IMG/VR virus record: IMGVR_UViG_2700989519_000005
Length of the DNA stretch: 6,313 bases
Strand: one strand, 5' to 3'
Source of the DNA: a virus
Taxonomy: Duplodnaviria > Heunggongvirae > Uroviricota > Caudoviricetes
Shown here: one piece after another, positions 6,233-6,313 of the stretch
Numbering within the stretch: position 1 is the stretch's first letter
Layout of the letters: the number at the start of each line of letters is the position of its first letter
Notes under the pieces: generated by a model
Seen by the model: the letters and a program-made list of their open reading frames with translations, nothing else
The model's database searches: none
Told to the model about the DNA's origin: nothing
Program-made: the position numbers and the translations under genes

Positions 6233-6252
6233 CGCTGTCACCTCAGAATGTC

Positions 6253-6313
6253 TGAAGTGGTCAACAAAAACTGGCCACCGAGTTAGAGTTTTTCCAGTAT
6301 CGATTTTCCGATT
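6253..6313 (+). mobile_element. Probable IS3-family terminal inverted repeat (left end of an element continuing beyond the window)
   Basis: Plus strand from 6253 reads TGAAGTGGTCAACAAAAACTGGCCACCGAGTTAGAGTTTTTCCAG. It has the 5'-TGA terminus and general look of an IS3-family (IS911-like, by recollection) IR, and starts only 20 nt upstream of the dnaC-like start. Only 61 bp are visible and no transposase ORF is in the window. Confidence 0.45.

What the first reader, a model, noticed from the sequence alone, without database searches (positions are those of the whole stretch)
6233..6313. IS terminus 20 bp upstream of the dnaC-like gene; replication initiator and origin are not where a lambdoid replication module would have them
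A DnaC-like loader plus DnaB-like helicase pair usually follows an initiator gene that contains the origin. Here the dnaC-like start (6230-6232) is preceded by only 20 bp before a sequence with the hallmarks of an IS3-family terminal repeat (TGAAGTGGTCAACAAAAACTGGCCACC...). Together with the IS at 113-395 this makes the whole 5.8-kb prophage segment IS-bounded. That is consistent with an eroded, non-inducible prophage, but also with a potentially mobilisable IS-flanked block carrying Q, the tRNAs and the lysis genes.
Basis: partly seen in the sequence, partly recalled or inferred. Interest (0 to 1): 0.45.

Follow-up and report, generated by a model that had tools for sequence, protein, structure and literature searches.

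The report
IS911 end truncating a Shigella prophage
The last 61 bases of this contig are the right end of the well-known insertion sequence IS911, which has replaced the replication-initiator gene of a decayed lambda-like prophage in Shigella flexneri; this is ordinary IS-driven prophage erosion.

Summary
Window 6253-6288 matches the published 36-bp IS911 right inverted repeat at 36/36 positions. Window 6261-6313 (minus strand) encodes the last 16 codons and stop of the IS911 transposase. The window is an entire 6,313-bp draft contig (LAHY01000253.1) that stops inside the repeat. Complete S. flexneri 2a chromosomes identical over 111-6313 show a full, intact 1,249-bp IS911 there.

In uninterrupted relatives, including complete Stx-converting phages, a 302-aa initiator gene ("replication protein O", phrog_270) sits directly upstream of the DnaC-like gene. 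It carries four 12-bp iteron-like repeats. The window keeps only its last 10 bp (6243-6252).

Strain comparison reconstructs the history. IS911 first replaced 4.7 kb of early genes including the initiator. A second event then removed a further 6.3 kb. There are no target-site duplications.

On the left, IS600 replaces 2.5 kb reaching into the small-terminase gene. The prophage is therefore defective. IS600 and IS911 have non-cognate ends (14/36), so the composite-transposon reading is not supported.

This is an already known kind of feature and of low interest. One curiosity is that the same junction nucleotide carries IS911 in opposite orientations in different strains.

The parts
6253..6313 (-). 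Right end of IS911 (61 bp). The element's orfA->orfB direction is the window's minus strand. The contig stops inside the IS.
   Evidence: 100% identical to IS911 copies in L002, L004-L010, L012, L013. The full 1,249-bp element at L007 8732-9980 has 11 mismatches to a RefSeq-annotated 'IS3-like element IS911 family transposase' copy.
6253..6288 (+). 36-bp IS911 right inverted repeat (IRR), written tip-inward on the + strand.
   Evidence: 36/36 to oligonucleotide IRRa, 'the exact sequence of IRR' (PMC2909936; checked).
6261..6311 (-). 3' end of IS911 orfB: ...SENRYWKNSNSVASFC plus stop (TGA at 6263-6261, inside the IRR).
   Evidence: Translation. Same C-terminus as the complete OrfB frame of the L007 copy.
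6259..6264 (-). Outward-facing TTGACC hexamer in the IRR, the likely -35 half of the IS911 circle-junction promoter. No matching -10 lies in the flank.
   Evidence: Sequence. The literature states that IS911 has an outward -35 in IRR (PMC9330008). Assigning this particular hexamer is my inference. Candidate -10 hexamers at 15-19 bp spacing score 0-2 of 6, and the promoter scan found 0 sites.
6243..6252 (-). Remnant of the phage replication-initiator gene: last 10 nt, G-ACA-TTC-TGA (stop at 6245-6243).
   Evidence: Alignment with uninterrupted alleles L009 and L001 and with Stx2a phage L017. Gene coordinates.
6233..6244 (-). Ribosome-binding region of the DnaC-like gene (GAGGTG at 6244-6239, overlapping the initiator stop codon).
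   Evidence: Read directly from the sequence.
5354..6232 (-). DnaC-like helicase loader gene (292 aa), intact.
   Evidence: Pfam IstB_IS21 1.5e-15 and Bac_DnaA; phrog_50 'DnaC-like helicase loader' 1.4e-89. The exact protein occurs in 5,168 collection blocks.
3966..5357 (-). DnaB-like replicative helicase gene (463 aa), intact.
   Evidence: Pfam DnaB_C 3e-72 and DnaB N-terminal domain.
396..6252 (-). Surviving prophage segment: DnaC-like, DnaB-like, small ORFs, NinH, Q, four tRNAs, holin, a 209-aa ORF, lysozyme, truncated Rz.
   Evidence: 99.7% identical over 397-6252 to uninterrupted E. coli prophages and 100% to S. flexneri L009. tRNAs.
111..395 (-). Left end of IS600 (IRL tip TGAGGTAGCC at 395, orfA start at 331). 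It is complete (about 1,264 bp) in the matching complete genomes.
   Evidence: 'IS3-like element IS600 family transposase'.
1..109 (-). 23S rRNA fragment joined to an internal point of IS600. Not part of the feature and probably an assembly chimera.
   Evidence: 100% to 23S rRNA genes of E. coli genomes. Complete genomes continue as IS600 at this point. The chimeric ORF 77-331 is found on this contig only.

Best explanation
Window 6253-6313 is the right end of a complete, apparently functional IS911 (IS3 family) in a Shigella flexneri chromosome. It sits 10 bp before the end of what used to be the prophage's replication-initiator gene. The IS marks a deletion and rearrangement scar, not a simple insertion.

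The ancestral prophage arrangement survives in other S. flexneri strains and in Stx-converting phages: ...Rha - 77-aa ORF - initiator (302 aa, with iteron-like repeats) - DnaC-like - DnaB-like - ... - Q. In one lineage, IS911 replaced 4.7 kb of early genes including all but the last 10 bp of the initiator. In the window's lineage, a second event removed a further 6.3 kb, leaving another IS911 copy's IRR abutting the same nucleotide. Its other end now abuts an inverted Rz fragment of a different prophage piece.

On the other side, IS600 replaces 2.5 kb from the Rz 3' end into the small-terminase gene. The segment is therefore a fragment of a replication- and packaging-defective prophage that lacks its initiator and candidate origin. 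The contig ends at the ISs because short-read assembly breaks at repeats.

Shown: the IS identity, the breakpoints, the deletions and the gene order in relatives. Inferred: the order of events, that the iteron-like repeats are the origin, and non-inducibility.
For: IRR 36/36 to the published sequence. Full element in L007/L008/L013, which are 100% identical to window 111-6313: 1,249 bp, IRL TGAAGTGGCACAC..., orfA of 100 aa, A6G slippery motif at nt 324, open orfB, Pfam HTH_Tnp_1/rve on the product. L007 and L008 are S. flexneri 2a strains G1663 and AR-0425 (PMC9455713). Homology to uninterrupted alleles breaks at 6252|6253. The upstream gene in relatives is a replication initiator: phrog_270 5.4e-65, plus O-like and DnaD-like PHROGs, and it is annotated 'phage replication protein O' in the complete Stx2a phage LC567829 with order cI-cro-...-O-DnaC-like-DnaB-like-...-Q. 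Four 12-bp CAGAGAATACnn repeats lie mid-gene and are absent from the window. Flanks are GCTTT|IS911|GACATT, so there is no target-site duplication. L004 5431-8733 = L011 2000-5302 and L004 9981+ = L011 9981+, so IS911 replaces L011 5303-9980. L007 6263-9981 = L004 1-3719, so L004 3720-9980 is missing in L007. No initiator sequence lies within +/-10 kb in any interrupted locus. IS600 replaces L001rc 11857-14397. The window is the whole contig LAHY01000253.1, and most assemblies carry this gene on 5-10 kb contigs.
Against: I could not search the full G1663 or source chromosome, so a displaced copy of the initiator elsewhere in the genome is not formally excluded. Absence of the reciprocal junction was tested only in two L004-type representative genomes. 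The order L011 -> L004 -> L007 is the most parsimonious reading of three structures, not a phylogeny. The origin function of the 12-bp repeats is inferred only by analogy with lambda ori inside O. Non-inducibility was not tested. The organism name of GCA_001017305.1 itself was not returned by any tool.
Confidence: 0.93

Rival explanations
1. Simple IS911 insertion: the IS merely interrupts the initiator gene, the rest of the gene and the early region continue on the far side, and the prophage is otherwise intact.
For: The breakpoint lies inside the initiator ORF, and the right flank GAC could be one copy of a 3-bp duplication.
Against: In the genomes identical to the window, the far side of the IS is an inverted Rz fragment (GCTTT|IRL), not initiator sequence. 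There is no duplication and no initiator DNA within 10 kb. In L004-type genomes the far side is the middle of a primase gene, with 4,678 bp missing.
Confidence: 0.02
2. The IS600...IS911-bounded 5.86-kb block is a composite, mobilisable unit carrying Q, tRNAs and lysis genes.
For: It is bounded by two IS3-family elements in the same orientation, and the context beyond the IS911 side differs between strains.
Against: The two ISs are different elements. IS600 IRL versus IS911 IRR or IRL share 14/36 or 13/36 positions, against 24/36 between the two IS911 ends, so no single transposase is expected to recognise both. The IS600-side neighbourhood (terminase, gpW, portal) is the same in every IS-bounded locus read (L004-L008, L012, L013). 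The differing IS911-side contexts are explained by nested deletions at one chromosomal site. No E. coli complete genome carries the junction.
Confidence: 0.03
3. The IS is functionally co-opted: transcription reading out of IS911 (orfB ends 28 nt before the ATG, same strand) or a hybrid promoter using the outward -35 in the IRR now drives the orphan DnaC-like and DnaB-like genes, which are retained for a host function.
For: Same strand, 28-nt gap, and no terminator-like site between the orfB stop and the ATG. IS911's IRR carries an outward -35 (PMC9330008). Both genes are intact, and the exact DnaC-like protein is very widespread in assemblies.
Against: No acceptable -10 lies at 15-19 bp spacing (0-2 of 6 matches), and the scan found 0 promoter-like sites. 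The intactness is equally explained by recency, since the segment is 100% identical to uninterrupted alleles. No expression data exist.
Confidence: 0.06
4. The match is only a solo inverted repeat, an IS remnant or a chance resemblance, with no IS present.
For: The window shows only 61 bp.
Against: 61/61 identity extends beyond the IR into orfB coding sequence. Identical complete genomes hold the full 1,249-bp element.
Confidence: 0.01

Closest known systems
IS911 (IS3 family; the model copy-out-paste-in insertion sequence, first described in Shigella dysenteriae according to my own knowledge)
   Same: The IRR is identical at 36/36 to the published one. The full copy in matching genomes is 1,249 bp with 36-bp IRs, a 100-aa OrfA, the A6G frameshift motif and an OrfB with an rve (DDE) domain. 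It is 99.1% identical to a RefSeq-annotated IS911 copy.
   Different: Nothing of substance. This copy lacks a flanking target duplication because it sits on a deletion or rearrangement junction.
ISEc52 (IS3 family, close relative of IS911 in E. coli)
   Same: Its right end differs from the window's 61 bp by essentially one extra T.
   Different: The window matches IS911 copies at 100% and ISEc52 at about 93%. The apparent extension of ISEc52 hits into the flank was chance.
Initiator - DnaC-like - DnaB-like replication module of lambdoid Stx-converting phages (e.g. Stx2a phage Stx2_EH2201, LC567829; Escherichia phage ASU11)
   Same: The DnaC-like and DnaB-like genes and downstream order are collinear, at about 89-92% identity.
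   Different: The window lacks the 302-aa O-like initiator with its iteron-like repeats, the 77-aa ORF, the Rha/cII-region genes and cI/cro. Only 10 bp of the initiator survive.
IS-eroded cryptic lambdoid prophages of Shigella and E. coli (e.g. DLP12, Rac and Qin in K-12; named from my own knowledge, not tested here)
   Same: Partial lambdoid gene sets bounded or interrupted by ISs, with loss of replication and packaging functions.
   Different: None in kind. This is a specific S. flexneri instance involving IS911 and IS600.

Membership tests
IS911 / IS3 family insertion sequence | Terminal inverted repeats of about 36 bp beginning 5'-TG...CA-3', matching the reference ends | tested here: met
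   Window 6253-6288 equals the published IRR at 36/36. IRL TGAAGTGGCACACTGAATTTGGCCACC lies at the other end in L007.
IS911 / IS3 family insertion sequence | Two overlapping ORFs (orfA, orfB) with a programmed -1 frameshift at an A6G motif | tested here: met
   In L007 8732-9980: orfA of 100 aa from nt 73, A AAA AAG at nt 324, and orfB open in the -1 frame. RefSeq notes 'programmed frameshift' for the 99.1%-identical copy. Only the last 16 orfB codons are in the window itself.
IS911 / IS3 family insertion sequence | DDE (rve) transposase catalytic domain with an N-terminal HTH | tested here: met
   Precomputed Pfam hits HTH_Tnp_1, rve and rve_3 on the 389-aa product in L013, L004 and others.
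IS911 / IS3 family insertion sequence | Short (3-4 bp) direct target duplication flanking a simple insertion | tested here: not met
   Flanks are GCTTT|IS|GACATT (L007) and GCAA|IS|GACATT (L004). This does not argue against IS911 identity. It shows that this copy lies on a recombinant or deletion junction.
Lambdoid initiator-loader-helicase replication module | Initiator (O-like) gene directly upstream of the loader gene | tested here: not met
   Only 10 bp of it remain in the window. It is present in relatives L001, L002, L003, L009-L011 and L017.
Lambdoid initiator-loader-helicase replication module | Origin (iterons) within or next to the initiator gene | tested here: not met
   The 4 x 12-bp CAGAGAATACnn array of intact alleles has no match in the window with up to 2 mismatches. 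That the array is the origin is an inference.
Lambdoid initiator-loader-helicase replication module | DnaC-like loader and DnaB-like helicase genes | tested here: met
   Pfam and PHROG hits.
Composite transposon | Two copies of the same IS, or ends recognised by one transposase, bracketing the cargo | tested here: not met
   IS600 on the left and IS911 on the right; IR identity 13-14/36.
Composite transposon | The unit is found at different sites with target duplications | tested here: not met
   All IS-bounded loci read share the same IS600-side neighbourhood, and the differences on the IS911 side are nested deletions. The junction is absent from 5,426 E. coli genomes.

The most novel reading that the evidence does not exclude
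The same phage nucleotide (6252|6253) is joined to IS911's IRL in some S. flexneri strains (L004-type) and to its IRR in others (L007-type, the window). A second flank (the DUF1133 gene side) shows the same end-swap between L004 and L006. Homologous recombination between IS copies cannot exchange the end attached to a flank. These junctions could therefore be natural chromosomal footprints of IS911's 'targeted' transposition next to its own ends: a second copy inserting at the 3-bp duplication beside a resident IR, followed by deletion between direct copies. So far that behaviour is documented mainly in plasmid assays.
Probability: 0.3. Interest if true: 0.3.

Novelty: already known. Interest (0 to 1): 0.08.

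Why it matters
It matters little beyond annotation. It explains why this prophage fragment has a helicase loader and helicase but no initiator or origin: they were deleted by IS911-associated events. It also shows that the contig boundaries are repeat-induced assembly breaks, and it warns that the 23S rRNA piece at the left end is probably a chimera. It is one more documented case of IS expansion dismantling prophages in Shigella flexneri. The only item of possible specialist interest is the IS911 end-swap at identical junctions, which could be mined across Shigella genomes as evidence for IR-targeted transposition in nature.

Tried and rejected
1. ISEc52 hits appeared to extend 12 bp into the phage flank, which suggested an insertion hot spot. 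Reading the sequences showed unrelated flanks, so the extension was chance.
2. Hybrid promoter from the IRR's outward -35 plus a flank -10: no usable -10 and 0 sites in the scan.
3. Head-to-head IS911 intermediates (IRL-3bp-IRL, IRR-3bp-IRR) in 5,426 E. coli genomes. Only two-piece matches hundreds of bp apart were found, none abutted.
4. Reciprocal junction (initiator 3' end + GAC(A) + IS911 tip) in species-representative genomes: 0 hits. Two representatives do carry the L004-type junction, so the negative is meaningful for those two only.
5. Rfam at gathering threshold did not report the 109-nt 23S fragment because it is too short. BLAST did.
6. Pfam gave nothing for the 302-aa initiator. 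PHROGs identified it.
7. The paper on the IS911 target-specificity switch (PMC126149) is not held. The statement is cited second-hand from PMC9333248.
8. Accession searches did not return the organism name of the source assembly GCA_001017305.1.

Full report
**Observation**

The region was read directly. On the minus strand the DnaC-like ORF starts with ATG at 6232-6230. This is the start RefSeq uses for the same gene in an E. coli relative. It is preceded by GAGGTG at 6244-6239. Window 6253-6288 is identical at 36/36 to the oligonucleotide that Chandler's group give as "the exact sequence of IRR" of IS911 (PMC2909936, Table 1). All 61 bases to the end of the window are 100% identical to IS911 copies in many fetched loci. 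539 E. coli records match at >=99%.

**Which end, and which strand**

The window holds the right end. Window 6261-6311 on the minus strand encodes ...SENRYWKNSNSVASFC plus a stop, which is the C-terminus of IS911 OrfB, and the stop lies inside the IRR. The transposase therefore runs in the same direction as the phage genes and ends 28 nt before the DnaC-like ATG.

**Source of the window**

Looking up the odd 84-aa ORF at 77-331 returned a single contig: LAHY01000253.1 of assembly GCA_001017305.1. It is 6,313 bp long and the window is all of it. The window stops 61 bp into IS911 because a short-read assembler could not cross the repeat. In line with this, most assemblies that encode the identical DnaC-like protein carry it on 5-10 kb contigs (3,431 of 5,168 blocks).

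**Extension to the right**

Ten complete-genome loci encoding the identical DnaC-like protein were fetched. L007 (CP007037), L008 (CP044152) and L013 (CP042980) are 100% identical to window 111-6313. CP007037 and CP044152 are Shigella flexneri 2a strains G1663 and AR-0425 (PMC9455713). In these loci the IS is complete:
- It is 1,249 bp long (L007 8732-9980).
- Its IRL is TGAAGTGGCACACTGAATTTGGCCACC...
- orfA (100 aa) starts at nt 73, the A AAA AAG slippery motif is at nt 324, and orfB is open.
- The product has Pfam HTH_Tnp_1 and rve domains.
- It has only 11 mismatches to a copy RefSeq labels [quoted passage not shown].

**What should be there**

E. coli prophages 99.7% identical over window 397-6252 lose similarity exactly at 6252. 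So do S. flexneri loci L009-L011, which are 99.9-100% identical (L009 100%). In all of these a 909-bp gene ends 10 bp upstream of the DnaC-like ATG. Pfam does not recognise it. PHROGs do: phrog_270 "replication initiation protein" at 5.4e-65, plus O-like and DnaD-like families.

The same four-gene module (77-aa ORF, initiator, DnaC-like, DnaB-like) occurs at about 92% identity in complete Stx-converting phages. In Stx2a phage Stx2_EH2201 the order is cI, cro, DNA-binding protein, two small ORFs, "phage replication protein O" (302 aa), the DnaC-like gene, the DnaB-like gene, and then Q. The middle of the initiator gene carries four tandem 12-bp repeats, CAGAGAATACnn, at L009 9536-9583. L001 has all four, but the more divergent L003 matches the motif only twice. 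By analogy with lambda ori inside O, I take this array as the likely origin, which is an inference. Nothing like it exists in the window.

The alignment of the junction shows all alleles identical from GACATTCTGAGG onward and divergent immediately upstream. The window therefore keeps only G-ACA-TTC-TGA (6252-6243) of the initiator.

**Not a simple insertion**

In L007-type genomes the IS flanks are GCTTT|IRL...IRR|GACATT. The left flank is an inverted second copy of part of an Rz lysis gene, equal to window 397-572. There is no target duplication. No initiator sequence lies within 10 kb in any interrupted locus.

A second group of genomes has IS911 at the very same nucleotide but in the opposite orientation (IRL|GACATT). 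This group comprises L004, L005, L006, L012, L018 and L019, and includes ATCC 29903, FDAARGOS_690 and SFBU1023. In these the IRR abuts the middle of a Toprim primase gene.

Pairwise comparison resolves the history:
- L004 5431-8733 equals L011 2000-5302, and L004 9981+ equals L011 9981+. IS911 therefore replaces L011 5303-9980 (4,678 bp). That stretch covers the primase 3' part, NinB, NinE, an HTH/Gp49 pair, Ash/Rha, the 77-aa ORF and the initiator.
- L007 6263-9981 equals L004 1-3719. The window's configuration is therefore the L004 type minus L004 3720-9980 (6,261 bp, including that IS911 copy).

The initiator was deleted, not displaced. This holds at least in the two L004-type representative genomes, where a scan for the reciprocal junction found nothing.

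**The other boundary**

Window 111-395 is the left end of IS600, with its IRL tip TGAGGTAGCC at 395 and orfA starting at 331. In complete genomes IS600 is whole, and relative to the intact E. coli prophage it replaces 2,541 bp. That stretch covers the Rz 3' end, a ParDE pair, KilA-N and small ORFs, and it ends 201 nt into the small-terminase gene. It has no target duplication either. The prophage has therefore lost its early region, initiator and candidate origin on one side, and the start of its packaging module on the other. "Eroded, non-inducible" is the well-supported reading, although inducibility itself is inferred.

**Mobilisable block?**

This reading is not supported. The bounding elements are different ISs. 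Their ends share 13-14 of 36 positions, against 24/36 between IS911's own two ends. The IS600-side neighbourhood is constant in every IS-bounded locus read (L004-L008, L012, L013), and the differences on the IS911 side are nested deletions at one site. None of 5,426 complete E. coli genomes has the junction.

**Possible functional side-effects**

IS911's IRR carries an outward -35 used in the circle-junction promoter (PMC9330008). TTGACC at 6264-6259 fits that description, which is my inference. The flank offers no -10 (0-2 of 6 at 15-19 bp spacing), and the scan found no promoter-like site and no terminator between orfB and the ATG. Read-through from IS911's own promoter into the DnaC-like and DnaB-like genes is possible but untested, and I give domestication about 6%.

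**Loose end**

A flank cannot change the IS end it is attached to by homologous recombination between IS copies. Yet the DnaC-side flank is attached to IRL in L004-type strains and to IRR in L007-type strains. The DUF1133-side flank is likewise attached to IRR in L004 and to IRL in L006.

A second IS911 inserting at the 3-bp duplication beside a resident end, followed by deletion between direct copies, would reproduce the observed junctions exactly. IS911 is reported to have a second, IR-targeted insertion mode (Loot et al. 2002, as cited in PMC9333248). I looked for abutted head-to-head pairs in E. coli genomes and found none. This remains a hypothesis, with probability about 0.3.

**Verdict**

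The finding is correct and ordinary. A well-known IS (IS911) sits at a deletion scar that removed the O-like initiator of a lambdoid prophage in S. flexneri. It was seen at the end of a repeat-bounded draft contig. The kind of feature is already known, and I score interest at about 0.08.

Noticed in passing
window 1-110: The first 109 bases are 100% identical to an internal stretch of 23S rRNA, fused to an internal point of IS600 orfA. This creates a chimeric 84-aa ORF (77-331) found on this contig only. Complete genomes continue as IS600 here. It is probably an assembly chimera.
   Followed up: partly
L004 9980 vs L007 9980; L004 3718 vs L006 3746: The same flank nucleotide is joined to IS911 IRL in some S. 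flexneri strains and to IRR in others, and this is seen for two different flanks. Homologous recombination between IS copies cannot do this. It suggests transposase-mediated insertion next to a resident IS911 end followed by deletion.
   Followed up: partly
window 396 / L007 15838-17100: IS600 replaces about 2.5 kb present in the intact E. coli relative, from the Rz 3' end to 201 nt into the small-terminase gene. There is no target duplication, so packaging functions are probably lost too.
   Followed up: yes
L009 9536-9583 (also L001; only two motif matches in L003): Four tandem 12-bp repeats CAGAGAATACnn lie in the middle of the 302-aa initiator gene. They encode TENT-TEIT-SENT-TESK and are a candidate iteron origin inside the initiator gene, as in lambda O.
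   Followed up: partly
window 2768-2844: ARAGORN calls this CAT-anticodon tRNA Met, whereas RefSeq annotates the corresponding tRNA in the 99.7%-identical E. coli prophages as tRNA-Ile (an ileX-like, lysidine-modified type). The phage carries a four-tRNA cluster (Gly-Thr-Arg-Ile/Met) between Q and the holin gene.
   Followed up: no
L005 6462-9980: In S. flexneri FDAARGOS_690 the IS911 copy at this junction spans 3.5 kb because it contains a group II intron-type reverse transcriptase gene (RVT_1 + GIIM, 502 aa, L005 7039-8547).
   Followed up: no
L011 3475-6381: The prophage Toprim primase gene is 968 aa, with a weak LAGLIDADG_3 hit, in the uninterrupted allele. This may be an intein or homing-endonuclease insertion.
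   Followed up: no
NZ_CP062900.1 about 18629-18753 (plasmid, pig E. coli; hits H65 and H74): An IS911-like element (about 92% identity) shows an IRR tip and an IRL tip abutted with about 3 bp between them. This is a tandem-dimer or circle-type junction, which would assemble the strong junction promoter.
   Followed up: no
window 6239-6249 vs IS911 nt 46-56 (opposite strand): An 11-nt identity, TTCTGAGGTGA, is shared by the phage flank (initiator stop plus the dnaC-like Shine-Dalgarno) and the IS911 region upstream of orfA. By my rough estimate the chance probability is about 0.02. It caused BLAST alignments to run past the junction.
   Followed up: no
L009 4040-4057: An IS911 copy whose IRL is preceded by a 9-nt direct duplicate of its own tip (TGAAGTGGC|TGAAGTGGCAC).
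   Followed up: no
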